From: a virus
Virus genome (UHGV): UHGV-0311442
Direction: 5' to 3' (one strand)
DNA length: 64,000 nt
Made by a program: the position numbers and the translations under genes. Each line of letters begins with the position of its first letter. Position 1 is the stretch's first letter. Below the pieces are notes generated by a model. The model was not told the origin of the DNA, made no database searches, and saw only the letters and a program-made list of their open reading frames with translations. Positions 7,168 to 55,205 of this stretch are shown here, piece by piece.

Positions 7168-8367
7168 ATGGCCTCCATTGTATATCAGTACCCTTTAGAT
7201 TTAACGGGAACCCTAACCTCTAACGCCGTGGAGCGTCAGGTTACGTTAGGTACAGGTAAAGTTAACCGTGCGTTTGCTTTTCCTGACGGACCGTTTTATG
7301 CTGATACGTTCCGCTTGCGGGTTGCCAATCGACCCGACGCGACGTATGAACGCGGAACGGACTATGAGTTGATTTTTGCACACCCGGGTTACGAGAAATT
7401 GACGAAGAACCGGGAAGTGGTAATGGCGGTTGTTGTAACGAACACCGCGATTCCGACCGATATCACGGTATCGGCGCAAGTAGTCGGTGGTCCGCAGTCT
7501 GCAAACGTGACTGCGATAGAACAGGCGATTGCCGAGTTGAATCTCGATAATCGAACTGTTGGCTTTAAAGACTTGCGAAATGTGCCGGACACGTTTCCTT
7601 CGGCACCAACGTATAAAGACGTCGGCGATATTTACGGCTTCGAATATATCATTACAGTGCTCGCTGGCATCAAAGATGCGATAACGGCGGGTGATGCTGT
7701 ACAGCTTGAGAACATCAAAGCGATTCTCGAAAGCCTGAAAAACGATTTCCTGGACGCGCTGAACGCGCACATTAACGCCACGGGTAATGTCCACCATCTG
7801 GATATTCATCAGGTTAACGGGTTAACAGAAACGGAGATCCGTGCACTTATCCGTGACGTACAATCTGCCATCGATGCAACCATTACTGATATTAATGCGT
7901 TGAAGAAAGCAGACGAAGCGTTAGGAAAACGTATTGATGCTGTTGTCAAATCTTTGGAAGCGTGGAACGACCAACTTAACATCGTTGCCCAAAACTACCA
8001 GAAGATGGCATTGGCATTGGCGAACCTAAATTCGCTAGTGTTACAGTTACAGAAAAATATCAACGATCTGAACACCAAACTCAACCAAGCGATTCAGCGC
8101 ATTGCTGCGTTAGAACAACGGGGTAATGAGTCCGATCAGAAAATTGATAATCTGCAACAAAACCTGGATGCGCTTAAACAACAGGTTGCGAATAACACGA
8201 ACGCAATCAGTCAGGCGAATCAGAACCTACAAAACCATATTGCGGCGGATAACCCGCACACAGGTTATCTCCACAAGAAATACGGCGGTGTGGTTCAGGC
8301 TCCAGTGCACGTTAACGCTAACTTGACGTCCCGTGATGACGTTCAGGCAGAAGCGGGTACGAAATAA
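7168..8367 (+). CDS. Coiled-coil fibre protein (fibritin / tail-fibre-like)
   Basis: RBS aaggagag then ATG at 7168 (ORF-track start 7060 lies inside the upstream gene); C-terminal half is heptad-rich, Q/N/L coiled coil. Confidence 0.75.
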   Translation: MASIVYQYPLDLTGTLTSNAVERQVTLGTGKVNRAFAFPDGPFYADTFRLRVANRPDATYERGTDYELIFAHPGYEKLTKNREVVMAVVVTNTAIPTDITVSAQVVGGPQSANVTAIEQAIAELNLDNRTVGFKDLRNVPDTFPSAPTYKDVGDIYGFEYIITVLAGIKDAITAGDAVQLENIKAILESLKNDFLDALNAHINATGNVHHLDIHQVNGLTETEIRALIRDVQSAIDATITDINALKKADEALGKRIDAVVKSLEAWNDQLNIVAQNYQKMALALANLNSLVLQLQKNINDLNTKLNQAIQRIAALEQRGNESDQKIDNLQQNLDALKQQVANNTNAISQANQNLQNHIAADNPHTGYLHKKYGGVVQAPVHVNANLTSRDDVQAEAGTK

Positions 8368-8376
8368 CTTTATTAC

Positions 8377-8422
8377 AGGAGGAACTATGCTTATGGGCGT
8401 AGTCCTCCATTCTTTTTTATTT
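8377..8422 (+). terminator. Rho-independent terminator separating the fibre genes from the Cys-rich peptide genes
   Basis: Stem ggaggaactatgc / gcgtagtcctcc followed by ttcttttttatttt. Confidence 0.6.
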
Positions 8423-8434
8423 TAAGGATACGTG

Positions 8435-15248: not shown

Positions 15249-15728
15249 ATGCTAAAACGTTTTCTACTTGTTGTAACTGCAGCACTTTCGTTGGCAAGCT
15301 GTGCCCTACAACCCACCGCTAACGGTCAATTCTCGACTGTACCCGTAGAGCCACACGACATGGTTATTTACACCTGTATGGGTGTTGAGCAAGATTTTGC
15401 AAATTACAAACCTGTCGTCAGTTCGACTAACCTAATGTTAGGTTCAGTAACTGTAGTCGATACTGGTGCTAACTGGGTAGCCACTTGGCCAAACGGTAAG
15501 ATTGAATCACCACAACTTTATAAAGATCTATTAGGTAAAGTTAATGGGAATATCGATCCTATCACGGGACAACGTTACTACCGTGTAAATGGACTACTTT
15601 CAAAAACGCCAACATTTGCGTATTCTACTTTAGAATATAAAACGGGCGATGGTAAAGGCATTACTTTCTTCCACTGTAAGGAAGGTGTAGCTCCTGACAG
15701 TGGAACAATGCTCCATCCTGCGGAATAA
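15249..15728 (+). CDS. Predicted lipoprotein (159 aa), moron-like gene on the opposite strand
   Basis: Signal peptide MLKRFLLVVTAALSLASC with lipobox L-A-S-C; RBS gaagggtg; own terminator downstream; only plus-strand gene within the minus-strand block. Confidence 0.7.
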   Translation: MLKRFLLVVTAALSLASCALQPTANGQFSTVPVEPHDMVIYTCMGVEQDFANYKPVVSSTNLMLGSVTVVDTGANWVATWPNGKIESPQLYKDLLGKVNGNIDPITGQRYYRVNGLLSKTPTFAYSTLEYKTGDGKGITFFHCKEGVAPDSGTMLHPAE

Positions 15729-15737
15729 TAAAAACTA

Positions 15738-15773
15738 CCCTACTCCCGATAAGGAGTAGGGTATATTGATTTT
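15738..15773 (+). terminator. Rho-independent terminator of the lipoprotein gene
   Basis: Stem ccctactcc / ggagtaggg followed by tatattgatttt. Confidence 0.6.
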
Positions 15774-15846: not shown

Positions 15847-16362
15847 TTAAATCTCGACTAAAGCGCTCCAATCGATTGGTTTTTGCTTAACCACTTTCAC
15901 AGTACCACGATTTGGTGACCAGAAAGTAATGTTAGGTTGATTACGAACGTCGATGTGTAACCAGCTGATGTCACATTCAATAAAGTGAATGAACGGAAAC
16001 TCATCAGGGTTAGCAGCGATATAGTCGTGAACCTGTTTTACGGTGCTATCCAACAACGTTGCATCAATTGCGTTACCGAATTTGTGTTGACTTCCTGAAT
16101 CGGCGTAAAGCTGTAACGCACGTTGTTTATAACTACCGCCCTTAGGCTTTTCTTGATTAATAAAGAAATCTAAAGTTCTTAGTCCGCGTTGTTGCGCAGC
16201 GGTTGAGTTAATCACCATTCTACCGAAACGGTTACGAATCTGTTGCAGTGAAATCATTAGCAACGGGTTCATAAACCGGATTGCAGAATCGCCGTATTTG
16301 GCAATATAAGACTGTGGTACTAACTCTCTGAGTTTAAAATTACTCGGATTTGGATGAAACAT
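15847..16362 (-). CDS. Peptidase M15-family cell-wall hydrolase (L-Ala-D-Glu / D-Ala-D-Ala peptidase-like)
   Basis: SQHKFGNAID (H-x3-G-x-A-x-D zinc-ligand motif) and downstream WLHIDV histidine, as in T5-type endolysins and VanY-like enzymes. Confidence 0.6.
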   Translation of the reverse strand: MFHPNPSNFKLRELVPQSYIAKYGDSAIRFMNPLLMISLQQIRNRFGRMVINSTAAQQRGLRTLDFFINQEKPKGGSYKQRALQLYADSGSQHKFGNAIDATLLDSTVKQVHDYIAANPDEFPFIHFIECDISWLHIDVRNQPNITFWSPNRGTVKVVKQKPIDWSALVEI

Positions 16363-17014
16363 CTTCCCTCCCAGACAGAAAAGCGCGTTTGATGTTCAGG
16401 TATTTGACATTAACGGGCTGATCTGTGGTGATATCAATACGTTCGTGGTCAGGGATTGCAGGTTCCTTAAACTCGCGAACGAATAAATAGTTTCGATTAT
16501 AATCTAACGTACGAAACGCGTTAGTGTTGTAGGATGGCTTTGCATTAGGATCTACGTAGGAATCCCAGCCGAATTCAACGACGGCCTTATAAAATGTTTG
16601 GCAGATATAAGGTGAGATTTCCAACGACTGCATAATACGCAGGAACGTTAAATCAGAGAACTCTTTATCGATAATACGCGAAACGTTACCACCCGGTGTC
16701 ATGGGATAGCTACGCTCCGTGTTACATTTTTGATAGAGTAGGTCGTGAATGCAGGCCGCAGGTGCCCACGGTCCGTCAGGATGGAAAATTCCCTGGAGGT
16801 GTTCAGGAATTGACGCTAAATCGGTAACGAACCCTTTCGGTGCTGTTAACCACAGTTGCGTGTCAGGCAATACACCCGTTAAATAAACCGCACGGTCTAA
16901 GTGTACGTGGTCGTGATAAATCTCACGTAACGTAAACGGATAATGGTAATCCTCCGTTAATACAAACCACTTATTGTCTAAACGTTTATATTGAAACTTC
17001 TCCATTACCCACAC
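16340..17014 (-). CDS. Hypothetical protein; TDLASIP...HDLLY motifs are reminiscent of DUF1353-type proteins
   Basis: ORF; probable ATG at 17005 with RBS ggaagg upstream. Confidence 0.6.
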   Translation of the reverse strand: MWVMEKFQYKRLDNKWFVLTEDYHYPFTLREIYHDHVHLDRAVYLTGVLPDTQLWLTAPKGFVTDLASIPEHLQGIFHPDGPWAPAACIHDLLYQKCNTERSYPMTPGGNVSRIIDKEFSDLTFLRIMQSLEISPYICQTFYKAVVEFGWDSYVDPNAKPSYNTNAFRTLDYNRNYLFVREFKEPAIPDHERIDITTDQPVNVKYLNIKRAFLSGREDVSSKSE

Positions 17015-17020
17015 CTTCCC

Positions 17021-17125
17021 TTATAGAAACCAGAAAAATTCGCATCCACGCTTTTCGTCTTTACGTTTTCGTCCAGACGTTAACGCTTTCCACAATAGTG
17101 CTAAGAGTTTAGCAAACCAGTTCAT
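17021..17125 (-). CDS. Small ORF (34 aa, MNWFAKLLALLWKALTSGRKRKDEKRGCEFFWFL), possible lysis-associated membrane peptide
   Basis: ATG overlaps the endolysin stop codon (ATGA coupling); amphipathic/hydrophobic N-terminus and basic C-terminus; below the 60-aa ORF-track cutoff. Confidence 0.3.
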   Translation of the reverse strand: MNWFAKLLALLWKALTSGRKRKDEKRGCEFFWFL

Positions 17126-17712
17126 TTTACTAACCCCGCCTTCACTACATAATCCGGCATTTCCCTGAACACACGTGCGTACCAGCCGTAAGCGAATTTT
17201 TCATTCTTCTTACGCTTTTCGGAGATTTCTGTGTAGTAGGTTACCTGGTGTGAGATTAACGCAAAGATTAAGATGCCTAACCCCTCGTCTTTACGGTAAT
17301 TCAGATAAGCATTCAGGGCACCTAGCGTTTTAGGTCCCATACCGCCGTCGGTGTCAATATCTGCGTAAAGTTTCCCTTCGTTATTTAAAACGTTCAGAAT
17401 ACGTTGTAACGATTTCACACAGTTAACGCGGCCAGAGTTAATAGCAAAATCAAACATCCGGTCTGCGAGTAAGGGTGAAATAGCTAAAATCTCATCGAGT
17501 TTAAGTTTCTTCCACCAACCGCGATCGTAAATATCAAACGCCTGCGCACGGGTCAGATCCTTCATTTTTCCTTTATACCCGTATTCGCGTGCAGTTGTTA
17601 GTGTTACACCGTGACAGGTTTCCCCACCTTTATCGTCAGGGTCGTTTACGTACCCGCCTTCTAAATCTGTTTTCGAAGCAATAATACCTTCTTTAGTCCA
17701 ACGTTCGGCCAT
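17122..17712 (-). CDS. Endolysin: GH108-family muramidase with C-terminal peptidoglycan-binding domain
   Basis: N-terminal EGGYVNDPDDKGGETCHGVT signature of glycoside hydrolase family 108; C-terminal region typical of the PG_binding_3-type domain. Confidence 0.8.
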   Translation of the reverse strand: MAERWTKEGIIASKTDLEGGYVNDPDDKGGETCHGVTLTTAREYGYKGKMKDLTRAQAFDIYDRGWWKKLKLDEILAISPLLADRMFDFAINSGRVNCVKSLQRILNVLNNEGKLYADIDTDGGMGPKTLGALNAYLNYRKDEGLGILIFALISHQVTYYTEISEKRKKNEKFAYGWYARVFREMPDYVVKAGLVK

Positions 17713-17773
17713 TTTGTTTAACTCCTCTTTTACACAAAAAAAGAAAAGAGGGTGGGATTACCCCACCCTGTCG

Positions 17774-31032: not shown

Positions 31033-31078
31033 CTTATAACGTACTTGTGAGTCAGTGAGGGGAACCCCTCACTGATAA

Positions 31079-32170
31079 TTATAACTTGTTCTCGATTATC
31101 TCCGCCAACTCCTTTATTGCCTCAATAAGTAGAGCTATTTGGGCAGAGTTAGAGACCGTTAAAACGTCCTCACCATTAGCGTCTTTATAAGTAGAAACTG
31201 CTTCAGGTAACACTTTTTGTAAGGTCTGTGCTACAACGCCAGCCTCACGATGAACATTAGTGGATTTAAAGTTCTCCTTTTTGTCGTATATTAAACCTGA
31301 CAATTCCTTTACCTTCTCCAATGCATTAGTTATTGGAGAGAAATTACTTTTCAGCCGGGCGTCAGATCGTATATAAACGTCGTTAAAGTTACCGTTCCCA
31401 CCACAAACCCAAGTACCGTCGTTTTGCAAATAAGCATTGGCATCGGTGCCATTATCAGTACGTGAGTTGTTTATCATGTAAAAGCCGAATTGATAGTTAC
31501 CTAAACCACCAACAAAAAATTTCCTATCAGCATGGTCTTGTCTTAACAATGCCTGAGCAGAACTGGTTCCTACCGGATTAAGACCAAAAATAACGTTATG
31601 GTCTCTCATGCTAATCCAAGAACCTGAGTTGCTGTTAATAGAATATCTATTTGCATAAACCCAAGTATTGGTTCTTATATCTCCGGTAACGTTGAGAGGT
31701 TTATTGCTTTGAACAGCCCCACTCGTAAAGCGTAAAACATGAGCATTATTGGCGTAAACATCTAGAACGCCATCCCCGTTCTGCTTAAAGCCGGTGTCAT
31801 TATCCCCTAAAACTATGGAGTTCCCACCTAAAGCATTGGCGGTTCCAATACCCAATGCTCCATTCAATTGACCGCCAGATAATGGCAACGCCCCAACGTC
31901 GGCAGCAGTTGGCTTGTTTCTCGTATTGTACACGCGACGCCAACCTGGTGAGTAAGTATCGCCGTTAAATACGTAGATAAACTCCGCATTAGTGAGTGCG
32001 CCGGAGACGCTCGTCGTTGTGGCGGTCGTTATACGGATCGTGTAGTTGTTTGTGCTATTGCCATTACTAATCACTTCTATAACGGCCCCAGCTAACGGAA
32101 TAGCCCCCACAACCCGTCTCGCTGTGTGGTATGTGCGCACTAGCGGCATAAGCCCATGCACAGCGAGCAA
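31079..32170 (-). CDS. Tail-fibre distal segment with C-terminal intramolecular-chaperone (peptidase S74-like) domain
   Basis: C-terminus SDARLKSNFSPITNALEKVKELSGLIYDKKE...VSNSAQIALLIEAIKELAEI matches the auto-cleaving chaperone domain of phage fibres and endosialidases; no RBS-supported start; overlaps the upstream fibre ORF by ~100 nt. Confidence 0.65.
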   Translation of the reverse strand: MLAVHGLMPLVRTYHTARRVVGAIPLAGAVIEVISNGNSTNNYTIRITTATTTSVSGALTNAEFIYVFNGDTYSPGWRRVYNTRNKPTAADVGALPLSGGQLNGALGIGTANALGGNSIVLGDNDTGFKQNGDGVLDVYANNAHVLRFTSGAVQSNKPLNVTGDIRTNTWVYANRYSINSNSGSWISMRDHNVIFGLNPVGTSSAQALLRQDHADRKFFVGGLGNYQFGFYMINNSRTDNGTDANAYLQNDGTWVCGGNGNFNDVYIRSDARLKSNFSPITNALEKVKELSGLIYDKKENFKSTNVHREAGVVAQTLQKVLPEAVSTYKDANGEDVLTVSNSAQIALLIEAIKELAEIIENKL

Positions 32171-36489: not shown

Positions 36490-36864
36490 TCAGACCGTTA
36501 GTTCTCCACATAACTCAACGTCGATACCGAACGTCATTCCCACTTCTTGAAGTTTGTTCGCCAGTAGGTGACGATGACAAAACTTACCTGCGGGACAATA
36601 GCACATCAAAACCAAATCTTCGTGTCTAAGCAACGAGACCAACGTTTCGGCATCGGTATCTAACAGTCGTTCGAGTTTGTACAAATACTTTACCGTGTAT
36701 TCACGCTCAGCGGCAGCGTCTTGGGCAGAATTTTTATACGCCATTAGGAAATCCCAGTCGGGGGCGAGTTCCTTTCGCCCTGACTTCACAGTGATATCCA
36801 CTGCGTGAAATCCTTTTTGCTTAGCTAACCGCCACTTAGCGAGTTGTAGCGTCCAGATACGCAT
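36490..36864 (-). CDS. Small conserved hypothetical protein with CYCPAGKFCHR Cys/His motif
   Basis: ORF; motif suggests possible metal binding; family not assigned. Confidence 0.55.
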   Translation of the reverse strand: MRIWTLQLAKWRLAKQKGFHAVDITVKSGRKELAPDWDFLMAYKNSAQDAAAEREYTVKYLYKLERLLDTDAETLVSLLRHEDLVLMCYCPAGKFCHRHLLANKLQEVGMTFGIDVELCGELTV

Positions 36865-37064
36865 TAGGAACGAGTCTGCGATTCAGCCATCAGCGCACAA
36901 CTTTTTACAGCCTGTGCATGAAGCTCTGTACCTGGTGTGTAATCCTTTATACAATCCTGATACAATTCACGTTTTGTTTCTAGAACACGATTATCGTACT
37001 CAGCACTTGCTAGTGCACCTGCGATAAGGATAAAAACTAGAATCGGCAACCAAATTTTCATCAT
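36864..37064 (-). CDS. Small secreted/membrane protein (66 aa)
   Basis: N-terminal hydrophobic signal-like segment MMKIWLPILVFILIAGALASA; paralog of the adjacent 69-aa ORF. Confidence 0.5.
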   Translation of the reverse strand: MMKIWLPILVFILIAGALASAEYDNRVLETKRELYQDCIKDYTPGTELHAQAVKSCALMAESQTRS

Positions 37065-37270
37065 CCATCTCCCATACGTTTAGCGTATTCCGTACACGCC
37101 ATTACTAATTCGGCGTAACGTGGATTATCTACAGTAGTACCTGACATACATTCACGGTAAAGGGTCTCTCTACGTGATTCGTCAGACGTCTTAACGTAGA
37201 ACATCAGCATCGATACAATCAGCGCAGTTGAAACAATTGCCGAGATGATATATCCGTCATTTATTTTCAT
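37061..37270 (-). CDS. Small membrane protein (69 aa)
   Basis: TM segment IISAIVSTALIVSMLMFYV; shares the LY..C...(9-13)...A...AC..A pattern with the neighbour. Confidence 0.5.
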   Translation of the reverse strand: MKINDGYIISAIVSTALIVSMLMFYVKTSDESRRETLYRECMSGTTVDNPRYAELVMACTEYAKRMGDG

Positions 37271-54626: not shown

Positions 54627-55205
54627 TTATTTCGTTGTTGGGCTTTCTGTCTTCGACTTAAGCTGGCCTGATTTCTCAAGCTTCTTCTCAACAACTTTTG
54701 TGGCTATCTCAAGAGACTTATAAGCCAACGTTTTAATCGGCCAAGTCGCAAAAACAACCAATGCAAAGAACGGTACCAATGTCACAATCAGAACATCTAA
54801 ACTGTCTTCTGGAAAATGCTGGTGCGTGTCGTAACCCAGGAACCCGGTTACAATAACCGTCGCCAACGTCAGGAGGACAATAATGAACTTCTGGGGACCG
54901 GCTAATTTCGGCCATAAGGTTAGCATGGTTTCTTTGCTAATCTCATCCCCTAGAGATTCCACAGCGTCAGTTGCCTGCTGATGGAATTGTTCTGATATTT
55001 TGCCTAAGTTATCGATTAGCGTCGGGCGTAAGTCGGAAAGAATCTTTGTTCCCGAACGGGTAACGTCAACGTCGACGTCATCCCCATACGCCGCTTTCAA
55101 GAGTTTCGTTAACTGTTCAGACTGTTCTTTACTTAACTTTCTGTTTCCAGCTTGGATCAATAAGTCAAGTATTTCAGTGGGTAGTGCTTGTGTGCTCGGT
55201 TCCAT
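54627..55205 (-). CDS. Membrane protein (2 predicted TM helices)
   Basis: Hydrophobic segments FIIVLLTLATVIVTGFLGY and IVTLVPFFALVVFATWPI; terminator hairpin 54601-54620 downstream. Confidence 0.6.
   Translation of the reverse strand: MEPSTQALPTEILDLLIQAGNRKLSKEQSEQLTKLLKAAYGDDVDVDVTRSGTKILSDLRPTLIDNLGKISEQFHQQATDAVESLGDEISKETMLTLWPKLAGPQKFIIVLLTLATVIVTGFLGYDTHQHFPEDSLDVLIVTLVPFFALVVFATWPIKTLAYKSLEIATKVVEKKLEKSGQLKSKTESPTTK

What the first reader, a model, noticed from the sequence alone, without database searches (positions are those of the whole stretch)
17021..17125. Unannotated 34-aa ORF translationally coupled to the endolysin gene
Its ATG overlaps the endolysin TGA (ATGA). The peptide has an amphipathic hydrophobic N-terminus (NWFAKLLALLWKAL) and a basic middle section, and its 3' end overlaps the RBS of the next gene. 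This is a candidate small lysis-associated membrane peptide; no canonical holin or spanin pair was recognised next to the endolysin.
Basis: inference. Interest (0 to 1): 0.4.

Follow-up and report, generated by a model that had tools for sequence, protein, structure and literature searches.

The report
Conserved endolysin-coupled 34-aa cationic helix peptide
A 34-codon gene overlapping the stop codon of a jumbo phage's cell-wall-degrading enzyme is a real, conserved gene for a small positively charged helical peptide that probably binds membranes and probably helps the phage burst its host, but nobody has tested what it does.

Summary
The ORF is real and lies on the minus strand at 17125..17021. 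Its ATG overlaps the TGA of a GH108/PG_binding_3 endolysin (ATGA). Its TAA abuts the Shine-Dalgarno of the next gene, which encodes a DUF1353 protein.

It is under purifying selection. pN/pS is 0.09 in frame against 0.81 and 0.95 off frame in six close relatives, and 0.22 against 0.87 and 1.83 in Seoulvirus/Erskinevirus homologues.

It is a divergent member of an uncharacterised micro-protein family, seen as Asesino gp172 and phrog_25143. Family members always start with (A/G)TGA on the endolysin stop in SPN3US-like jumbo phages.

The peptide has a 17-residue amphipathic helix, an RKRK cluster and a short hydrophobic tail. It has no canonical TMD, no lipobox and no similarity to phiKT disruptin.

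The endolysin-to-DUF1353 slot holds one to three micro-ORFs of four types. Three look unrelated to one another; ORF1 and ORF2 may be distant paralogues. These micro-ORFs occur only where the endolysin is present.

The best reading is a membrane-binding lysis accessory peptide, either holin-like or disruptin-like. The function is untested. Interest is moderate.

The parts
17021..17125 (-). ORF1: 34-aa micro-gene (MNWFAKLLALLWKALTSGRKRKDEKRGCEFFWFL), stop codon included
   Evidence: Conserved in L007-L011. pN/pS 0.09 in frame against 0.81/0.95 off frame. Sole top hit of a Seoulvirus/Erskinevirus ORF1 profile among 1840 six-frame segments, E 3.5e-4.
17122..17125 (-). ATGA start/stop overlap with the endolysin gene (translational coupling site)
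   Evidence: The same (A/G)TGA overlap occurs in every clade that has ORF1.
17134..17140 (-). G-rich Shine-Dalgarno-like tract (GGCGGGG), 8 nt upstream of the ORF1 ATG and inside the endolysin coding sequence
   Evidence: GGGA/GGGG tracts sit at a similar distance in SPN3US, Asesino and phiEaH2. Inference only.
17072..17122 (-). Codons 2-18: conserved amphipathic helix core (NWFAKLLALLWKALTSG). The polar stripe is N2, K6, A9, K13, T16.
   Evidence: N, W, F, L, A, L are invariant across clades. Family hydrophobicity profile peaks at 100 degrees, p 0.002. AF2 predicts a helix over residues 4-33, pLDDT 70.8. KD19 of 0.51 is below TMD level.
17048..17071 (-). Codons 19-26: polybasic cluster RKRKDEKR (net peptide charge +5)
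   Evidence: The equivalent cluster is RRKR in Seoulvirus and Erskinevirus.
17024..17041 (-). Codons 29-34: clade-specific hydrophobic aromatic tail EFFWFL. The preceding codon 28 is variable (C/Y/Q), so there is no lipobox.
   Evidence: The tail is absent from Seoulvirus/Erskinevirus ORF1.
17122..17712 (-). Endolysin: GH108 muramidase domain plus PG_binding_3, with no signal or SAR sequence
   Evidence: Pfam. phrog_315 endolysin. PDB 6v40/6v3z relatives at E 8e-45. No TM segment.
17014..17020 (-). Shine-Dalgarno (GGGAAGG) of the DUF1353 gene, directly after the ORF1 TAA
   Evidence: sequence reading.
16340..17005 (-). DUF1353 gene (221 aa from ATG 17005), downstream partner in the same transcription unit
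   Evidence: Pfam PF07087, 6.9e-15. phrog_1158. Relatives start MEKL/MEAL at the equivalent ATG.
15847..16362 (-). 171-aa endolysin-like (LAS/M15-type motifs) gene, overlapping the DUF1353 gene by 23 nt. It is the last gene of the unit.
   Evidence: phrog_894 endolysin, 6.3e-28. No Pfam hit. The H-x6-D and H-x-D motifs are read from the sequence.
17749..17769 (-). Terminator-like hairpin plus T-run just upstream of the endolysin gene
15736..15763 (.). Bidirectional terminator-like hairpin closing the four-gene unit

Best explanation
ORF1 is a genuine protein-coding micro-gene of an SPN3US-like jumbo phage. It is translated by ribosomes that terminate on or initiate next to the endolysin stop codon (ATGA overlap), so it is made together with the endolysin late in infection.

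The product is a single short helix with three parts:
- a 17-residue amphipathic segment with a broad Leu/Trp/Phe face and a narrow Lys stripe;
- a polybasic RKRK cluster;
- a small aromatic tail.

I infer that it binds the anionic cytoplasmic membrane from the inside and acts as a lysis accessory factor. It would perturb or permeabilise a membrane so that the signal-less GH108 endolysin, and the lysis process as a whole, can proceed. Action at the inner membrane (holin-like or holin-modulating) is somewhat more likely than disruptin-like weakening of the outer membrane.

What is shown: the gene is real, is under purifying selection, is physically coupled to the endolysin and co-occurs with it, and has helical amphipathic cationic chemistry.

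What is inferred: membrane binding, the lysis role, and which membrane is the target.

My sub-probabilities are: real coding gene about 0.93; membrane-binding lysis accessory of some kind about 0.5; inner-membrane acting about 0.3; outer-membrane (disruptin-like) about 0.2.
For: - Frame, length and ATGA overlap are conserved in five 90-96%-identical relatives. Ten of 16 variable sites fall at codon position 3.
- pN/pS is 0.09 in frame against 0.81/0.95 off frame. The same signature appears in distant homologues: 0.22 against 0.87/1.83.
- Homologues lie directly after the endolysin in 43 phage records, always with an (A/G)TGA overlap.
- A profile built from those homologues picks out the window ORF uniquely, E 3.5e-4.
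- The amphipathic periodicity is conserved at 100 degrees, p 0.002. AF2 predicts a helix. Net charge is +5.
- The slot between the endolysin and DUF1353 always holds one to three micro-ORFs of four sequence types. Each has a hydrophobic helix and flanking charges.
- Relatives whose DUF1353 gene is not preceded by the endolysin have no micro-ORF there.
- The endolysin has no export signal. No holin is annotated in a PHROG-annotated Seoulvirus genome.
- The unit is bracketed by terminator-like hairpins.
- phiKT gp28 is a precedent: a small cationic helical lysis peptide whose gene overlaps the endolysin gene.
Against: - There is no experimental datum for any family member. phrog_25143 is 'unknown function'.
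- No canonical TMD: KD19 is 0.51 and there are two interior lysines. It therefore fails the structural definition of a holin.
- There is no sequence similarity to disruptin.
- Sister clades with ORF1 also carry a conserved spanin-like TM-protein + lipoprotein pair, so an outer-membrane disruptor may not be needed.
- The amphipathicity of this single sequence is not exceptional (p 0.34).
- Some relatives (ChrisDB, Caitlin, Huxley) lack ORF1 entirely, so it is dispensable for the lineage.
- Adjacency to an endolysin is only guilt by association.
Confidence: 0.5

Rival explanations
1. Disruptin-type function. The cationic amphipathic peptide reaches the outer membrane, displaces LPS-bridging divalent cations and weakens the outer membrane. 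The membrane then ruptures once the endolysin has removed the wall, as phiKT gp28 does. This would replace or supplement spanins.
For: - Size (34 aa), charge (+5), helical amphipathic character, absence of a TMD or signal, and a gene overlapping the endolysin gene all match the published description and the authors' search criteria of <80 aa and >= +4.
- No spanin pair and only one lipobox ORF are found in the 64-kb window.
- In the window's own clade, the homologue of the spanin-like lipoprotein has lost its lipobox cysteine. That leaves room for another outer-membrane-disrupting factor.
Against: - No sequence similarity to gp28.
- Seoulvirus and Erskinevirus phages carry ORF1 together with an intact TM-protein + lipoprotein pair.
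- Single micro-ORFs with true TMDs occupy the same slot in other clades. That points to the inner membrane rather than the outer one.
- The rest of this phage's genome is not visible.
Confidence: 0.2
2. The peptide is a partner or regulator of a neighbouring protein rather than a membrane-damaging agent. Examples would be an endolysin chaperone or inhibitor (as Ms6 Gp1 is for LysA; from my own knowledge) or a membrane tether for the endolysin or the DUF1353 protein.
For: - Strict translational coupling to the endolysin implies near-stoichiometric co-synthesis.
- ORF1 co-occurs with the endolysin.
- The conserved N-W-F...L...A-L motif could be a binding surface.
Against: - The slot is filled by sequence-unrelated peptides next to endolysins that are 60-65% identical. 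A specific protein-protein interface would be expected to co-vary with the endolysin, not to be swapped.
- No complex prediction could be run.
Confidence: 0.15
3. The ORF matters only as a translational relay. Ribosomes read through it to couple DUF1353 translation to the endolysin, and the peptide itself has no function.
For: - ATGA overlap upstream, and the stop codon abutting the next SD downstream.
- The ORF is dispensable in some lineages, where other micro-ORFs or a short gap do the job.
Against: - A relay needs only an open frame, but amino-acid sequence is conserved (pN/pS 0.09 and 0.22).
- A motif and an amphipathic pattern are retained between clades at saturated synonymous divergence (pS 0.72).
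- The predicted hairpin over the DUF1353 start is not conserved.
Confidence: 0.06
4. The ORF is a C-terminal extension of the endolysin. It would be reached by a -1 ribosomal slip on A-AAA-TGA and would give the enzyme a cationic amphipathic membrane-penetrating tail, like those described for some phiKMV-like endolysins.
For: - The window clade, Asesino and phiEaH2 have A AAA TGA at the junction.
- Membrane-active C-terminal amphipathic tails on endolysins are discussed in PMC6139136.
Against: - SPN3US has C AAA TGA, and pEa29 and SPAsTU have AAG TGA at the junction, so no slippery run is conserved.
- An in-frame ATG or GTG start with an SD-like tract is conserved in every clade.
- There is no stimulatory RNA structure (fold z-score -1.6).
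Confidence: 0.03
5. A small membrane peptide with a non-lysis role, for example host takeover toxin, superinfection exclusion or a virion assembly factor. It would lie here only because this intergenic slot tolerates insertions.
For: - The slot is highly variable.
- DUF1353 and the 171-aa gene travel with structural-type genes (DUF7941, DUF4376) in distant relatives.
- Phage genomes are rich in small membrane proteins of unknown role.
Against: - Micro-ORFs are present only when the endolysin is present.
- The start codon is fused to the endolysin stop in all clades.
Confidence: 0.1

Closest known systems
Erwinia phage vB_EamM_Asesino gp172 (YP_009290790.1), phiEaH2/Stratton homologues and PHROG family phrog_25143 (all 'hypothetical protein / unknown function')
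   Same: - 33-39 aa in length.
- Start codon overlaps the TGA of the orthologous GH108 endolysin, and a DUF1353 gene follows.
- Shared N-W-F-x3-L-x6-A-L core followed by a polybasic cluster.
- Profile match E 3.5e-4 within the window.
   Different: - Only 24-32% identical.
- The window peptide does not reach phrog_25143 in a direct hmmscan at E<=1.
- It carries a clade-specific EFFWFL tail instead of a hydrophilic tail.
- It stands alone in the slot, whereas Seoulvirus has ORF1+ORF2+ORF3 and Erskinevirus has ORF1+ORF2.
phiKT gp28 'disruptin' (Holt et al., bioRxiv 10.1101/515445)
   Same: - Small, cationic, predicted alpha-helical and amphipathic, with no TMD, no signal and no lipobox.
- The gene overlaps the 3' end of the endolysin gene (8 nt in phiKT, 4 nt here).
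   Different: - No detectable sequence similarity.
- 34 aa and +5, against 56 aa and +7.
- phiKT is provably spanin-less, whereas relatives carrying ORF1 have a spanin-like pair.
- Function has been shown experimentally for gp28 and not at all here.
Holins, including the class III phiKZ gp142 (PMC12894885)
   Same: Small size, a charged C-terminal region, a gene adjacent to a soluble endolysin that needs a membrane lesion to reach the wall, and extreme sequence diversity at an equivalent locus.
   Different: - No canonical transmembrane domain.
- As far as I know, 34 aa is well below the size of characterised holins (my own knowledge).
- phiKZ gp142 has one TMD plus a large cytoplasmic domain.
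Melittin / delta-lysin / phenol-soluble-modulin type lytic peptides (analogy only)
   Same: A hydrophobic-amphipathic helix followed by a KRKR-type cluster. Hydrophobicity (0.39 against 0.30) and hydrophobic moment (0.45 against 0.55) are close to those of melittin.
   Different: Unrelated origin. Those peptides are secreted toxins that act from outside the cell. This is a resemblance in design only, and the comparison with delta-lysin and PSMs rests on my own knowledge.

Membership tests
ORF1 micro-protein family of SPN3US-like jumbo phages (Asesino gp172 / phrog_25143) | Start codon (ATG or GTG) overlapping the TGA of the GH108/PG_binding_3 endolysin, upstream of the DUF1353 gene | tested here: met
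ORF1 micro-protein family of SPN3US-like jumbo phages (Asesino gp172 / phrog_25143) | N-W-F...L...A-L amphipathic core followed by a polybasic cluster; length 33-39 aa | tested here: met
   Alignment A1 has six invariant columns. Conserved 100-degree periodicity.
ORF1 micro-protein family of SPN3US-like jumbo phages (Asesino gp172 / phrog_25143) | Significant profile match | tested here: inconclusive
   My own profile of five homologues hits it uniquely in the window, E 3.5e-4 with the next hit at 0.45. hmmscan against phrog_25143 gives nothing at E<=1, and tblastn with the window peptide finds nothing in phage records.
Disruptin (phiKT gp28 type) | Small (<80 aa), net charge >= +4, predicted alpha-helical and amphipathic, no TMD, signal or lipobox | tested here: met
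   34 aa, +5, helix, KD19 0.51, Cys28 not conserved.
Disruptin (phiKT gp28 type) | Gene inside the lysis cassette, next to the endolysin | tested here: met
   4-nt overlap here. 8-nt overlap in phiKT.
Disruptin (phiKT gp28 type) | Sequence homology to gp28 | tested here: not met
   BLASTP finds no alignment at E<=100. According to its authors, gp28 has no homologues beyond PGT2.
Disruptin (phiKT gp28 type) | Phage lacks any spanin (no lipoprotein gene) | tested here: inconclusive
   There is no spanin pair in the window and one lipobox ORF. Sister clades have a TM-protein + lipoprotein pair. In the window's clade the homologous pair exists, but the second protein has no lipobox.
Disruptin (phiKT gp28 type) | Complements a lambda Rz/Rz1 defect; membrane-associated; antimicrobial as a synthetic peptide | not testable with these tools
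   Needs experiments (described).
Holin | At least one transmembrane domain | tested here: not met
   The maximum 19-residue Kyte-Doolittle mean is 0.51 (threshold about 1.6). Lysines at positions 6 and 13 lie inside the only hydrophobic stretch.
Holin | Timed lethal hole formation that releases the endolysin (complements lambda S) | not testable with these tools
   Needs experiments.
Spanin (o-spanin or u-spanin) | N-terminal lipoprotein signal with a lipobox cysteine | tested here: not met
   No signal peptide. The single Cys (codon 28) is Tyr or Gln in close relatives. The lipobox scan of the window does not pick up ORF1.

The most novel reading that the evidence does not exclude
The endolysin-to-DUF1353 slot of SPN3US-like jumbo phages may be a cassette of interchangeable 'micro-lysis peptides' of 27-52 aa. 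On this reading ORF1, a TMD-less amphipathic cationic helix of 34 aa, is itself the factor that gates endolysin access to the wall, or ruptures the outer membrane, in the window's clade. That clade has no other micro-ORF in the slot, and its spanin-like lipoprotein homologue has lost its lipid anchor. ORF1 would then be the smallest lysis effector of a tailed phage and a holin- or disruptin-type function without a transmembrane domain.
Probability: 0.12. Interest if true: 0.75.

Novelty: new variant of a known kind. Interest (0 to 1): 0.45.

Why it matters
- How nucleus-forming and SPN3US-like jumbo phages lyse their hosts is largely unknown. A lysis cassette was described only recently for phiKZ (PMC12894885), and none has been described for the SPN3US group.
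- A conserved micro-gene fused to the endolysin stop codon gives lysis researchers a concrete, cheaply testable candidate. It lies in a slot that swaps between at least three unrelated peptide types. Lambda S or Rz/Rz1 complementation and synthetic peptide assays would test it.
- If active, such 27-52-aa peptides would extend the disruptin/holin repertoire and could be of use as antimicrobial peptides or endolysin adjuvants.
- It also shows that routine annotation misses or mislabels these genes. They are unannotated in the SPN3US RefSeq record.

Tried and rejected
- Near-identity DNA search in phage records: no match.
- tblastn with the window peptide: no match. Homologues were found only through the SPAsTU peptide and synteny.
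- The search for homologous proteins refuses queries under 40 aa.
- The look-up of encoding contigs: the exact peptide is not on record.
- Whole-library phmmer: only one close relative (P0001) and one spurious repeat protein.
- Pfam, PHROG and Rfam on the ORF and region: nothing. One sub-threshold Rfam hit falls on the terminator hairpin.
- Lipoprotein/o-spanin reading of Cys28: rejected, because that codon is C/Y/Q in relatives.
- Hairpin sequestering the DUF1353 start: rejected. It is not conserved and the consensus energy is only -5.3 kcal/mol.
- -1 frameshift fusion to the endolysin: rejected, because the slippery site is not conserved.
- ORF2 or ORF3 homologues elsewhere in the window: none.
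- The idea that the EFFWFL tail is a relic of ORF2 (GFFKLL) could not be tested. The ORF1/ORF2 paralogy signal is weak (hhalign P 0.0035, probability 9%).
- Literature: no paper links SPN3US-type phages to a holin or spanin. SPN3US is not in the spanin survey.
- DUF1353 structure prediction and fold search were planned, then dropped as off-target.

Full report
**1. The observation**

The minus strand of 17125..17021 encodes MNWFAKLLALLWKALTSGRKRKDEKRGCEFFWFL, 34 aa.

- The ATG (17125-17123) overlaps the TGA (17124-17122) of a 196-aa protein with Glyco_hydro_108 and PG_binding_3 domains. That protein also matches phrog_315 'endolysin' and has solved relatives 6v40/6v3z.
- No earlier in-frame start codon exists. 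A G-rich SD-like tract lies 8 nt upstream of the ATG.
- The TAA (17023-17021) is followed at once by GGGAAGG, then 8 nt later by the ATG (17005) of a DUF1353 gene.
- The DUF1353 gene overlaps a 171-aa endolysin-like gene by 23 nt (phrog_894).
- Terminator-like hairpins at 17769-17749 and 15763-15736 bracket these four genes.

The description is therefore correct. The feature is on the minus strand.

**2. Is it a gene?**

No near-identical phage is in GenBank. IMG/VR holds five contigs of 107-225 kb whose endolysin is 90-96% identical.

- All five keep the 34-codon frame and the ATGA overlap.
- Of 16 variable sites, 10 are at codon position 3.
- Summed over sequence pairs, pN/pS is 0.09 in the ORF frame, against 0.81 and 0.95 in the other two frames.
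- The only variable residues are codon 28 (C/Y/Q) and two conservative changes in one sequence.
- A 94%-identical 34-aa protein exists in the 1.84-billion-protein library.

The window is related to SPN3US-like jumbo phages. In SPN3US, pEa_SNUABM_29, SPAsTU, Asesino and phiEaH2, an ORF of 33-39 aa starts with ATG or GTG on the endolysin TGA. It reads (MK.)NWF..LM+A...RAL.FA.RRKR....

- tblastn with the SPAsTU peptide finds this ORF in 43 phage records.
- It is annotated as a hypothetical protein in some records (Asesino gp172) and not in the SPN3US RefSeq record.
- A profile of five such sequences finds the window ORF as the single best hit among 1840 six-frame segments. E is 3.5e-4 and the next hit is 0.45.
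- Their 22-codon core shows pN/pS of 0.22 in frame, against 0.87 and 1.83 off frame, at near-saturated pS of 0.72.

I conclude that this is a real, conserved protein-coding micro-gene.

**3. The peptide**

- Six columns are invariant between clades: N, W, F, L, A, L.
- The clade-averaged hydrophobicity profile of the 17-residue core has its maximum periodicity at exactly 100 degrees (shuffle p 0.002). The polar stripe is N2, K6, A9, K13, T16, K20.
- For the window sequence alone the hydrophobic moment is unremarkable (0.45, p 0.34). Mean hydrophobicity and moment resemble those of melittin.
- The best 19-residue Kyte-Doolittle mean is 0.51, with two lysines inside the stretch. It is not a canonical TMD.
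- Net charge is +5.
- AlphaFold2 without an alignment gives one helix over residues 4-33 at pLDDT 70.8.
- There is no Pfam, PHROG or Rfam hit, and no conserved RNA structure.

**4. Context in relatives**

The stretch between the endolysin and the DUF1353 gene is a variable slot:

| Lineage | Content of the slot |
|---|---|
| Window clade | ORF1 only |
| Seoulvirus | ORF1 + ORF2 (DSGFFKLLRAIFxRRV) + ORF3 (30 aa: acidic DDW, then a TMD) |
| Erskinevirus | ORF1 + ORF2 |
| ChrisDB / Caitlin / Huxley type | One 38-52-aa peptide: acidic DDDPPP plus a TMD; no ORF1 |
| L046-L048 type | One 33-37-aa peptide: QGLGAVALVLF.SRLFGKVK |

- ORF1 and ORF2 may be distant tandem paralogues. WFxxLMRALW aligns with GFFKLLRAIF (hhalign P 0.0035, probability 9%).
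- In more distant relatives the DUF1353 gene and the 171-aa gene sit next to DUF4376 and DUF7941 genes, without the GH108 endolysin. No micro-ORF precedes DUF1353 there.
- The Certrevirus endolysins, which are the closest by sequence, have no such ORF.

The micro-ORFs therefore travel with the endolysin at this locus, not with DUF1353.

**5. Other lysis genes**

- In the window there is one lipobox ORF (15249-15728, plus strand). There is no spanin pair and no obvious holin next to the endolysin.
- A PHROG-annotated Seoulvirus genome (SPLA1a) has no feature named holin or spanin.
- My scan of SPLA1a found a 169-aa protein with one TMD and a Pro-rich C-terminus, followed 10 nt later by a 159-aa lipoprotein, about 44 kb from the endolysin.
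- That pair is conserved in Erskinevirus, the Huxley type and the L046 type. It looks like a two-component spanin by architecture only, since there is no family match.
- The window's clade has the homologous pair, but the second protein has a plain signal peptide and no lipobox cysteine.

**6. Interpretation**

What is shown: a real gene, coupled to the endolysin and co-occurring with it, that encodes a cationic amphipathic helix.

What is inferred: it binds membranes and assists lysis.

- The published disruptin, phiKT gp28, is the nearest functional precedent. It is small, cationic, helical and lacks a TMD, and its gene overlaps the endolysin gene.
- Against a disruptin role, there is no sequence similarity, and relatives carrying ORF1 keep spanin-like genes.
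- Peptides with true TMDs occupy the same slot singly in other clades, and the endolysin has no export signal. An inner-membrane role (holin-like or holin-modulating) is therefore slightly favoured.
- The loss of the lipobox in this clade keeps the outer-membrane model alive.
- A pure translational-relay role is contradicted by amino-acid conservation.
- A frameshift fusion is contradicted by the non-conserved slippery site.

**7. Novelty and score**

The family is already catalogued as 'unknown function' (phrog_25143), and some members are annotated. The window's peptide is a divergent member of it.

What appears to be undescribed, on the literature searches I ran, is:
- the recognition of an endolysin-coupled micro-ORF slot with at least three unrelated peptide types, conserved under selection;
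- the candidate lysis role.

I rate it a new variant of a known kind (small lysis-cassette membrane peptides), with interest 0.45.

Noticed in passing
Loci L021 (SPN3US), L006 (SPAsTU), L003 (pEa29), L019/L020 (Asesino, phiEaH2), L022-L024, L031, L046-L048: The slot between the endolysin and the DUF1353 gene holds four micro-ORF types of 27-52 aa in different combinations. ORF1 and ORF2 are unannotated in the SPN3US RefSeq record. The Caitlin-type peptide looks like the N-terminus of ORF2 joined to an ORF3-like acidic segment plus TMD.
   Followed up: partly
L144:1949-2452 and 2456-2911 (also L133, L134); SPLA1a OR413578 190947-191456 and 191466-191945: A conserved TM-protein + lipoprotein pair (phrog_8719 / phrog_8165, 'unknown function') looks like an unannotated two-component spanin of SPN3US-like phages. 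In the window's own clade the second protein has lost the lipobox cysteine and keeps only a plain signal peptide.
   Followed up: partly
window 15847-16362 (-): A 171-aa protein with LAS/M15-like H-x6-D and H-x-D motifs matches PHROG endolysin family phrog_894 (6e-28) but no Pfam model. It is a second putative cell-wall hydrolase in the same transcription unit, and it overlaps the DUF1353 gene by 23 nt.
   Followed up: partly
window 15249-15728 (+): This is the only lipobox ORF in the 64-kb window: a 159-aa predicted lipoprotein (MLKRFLLVVTAALSLASC...), phrog_9559 of unknown function. It is convergent with the endolysin unit and conserved in Seoulvirus (SPN3US gp107).
   Followed up: partly
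window 36864-37064 (-) and 37061-37270 (-): Two tandem small genes (66 and 69 aa) overlap by 4 nt. Each encodes an N-terminal TMD plus a short domain with a C-x(14-17)-C pattern. They have no PHROG hit. A protein of the same architecture is encoded at SPLA1a 115445-115654. They could be membrane proteins relevant to lysis or exclusion.
   Followed up: partly
window 54627-55205 (-): A 192-aa protein with two adjacent TMDs (about residues 101-161) after a soluble N-terminal domain. It lies directly downstream of the RuvC-like gene and matches phrog_8722 (unknown function). It is one of the few multi-TMD proteins in the window, so it is a possible holin candidate away from the endolysin.
   Followed up: no
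window 16340-17005 (-); loci L114-L117: The DUF1353 protein is labelled 'tail assembly chaperone' in PHROGs and RefSeq. It has an invariant HPDGPW...C-x-HD motif suggestive of a metal site. In distant relatives it travels with the 171-aa hydrolase-like gene next to DUF4376, DUF7941 and radical-SAM genes. The chaperone label looks untested.
   Followed up: no
window 31033-32066 and 7810-8431: These stretches of about 1.0 kb and 0.6 kb have no ORF of 80 aa or more on either strand, inside an otherwise tightly packed genome.
   Followed up: no
Salmonella phages SPFM1, 5-10, 12, 14, 15, 20 (hits H102-H112): In these records the ORF1 match is partial and falls in unannotated DNA about 30 kb from where it lies in sibling SPFM genomes. 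Their DUF1353 products are also truncated or odd. This suggests assembly or frameshift problems in those records.
   Followed up: no
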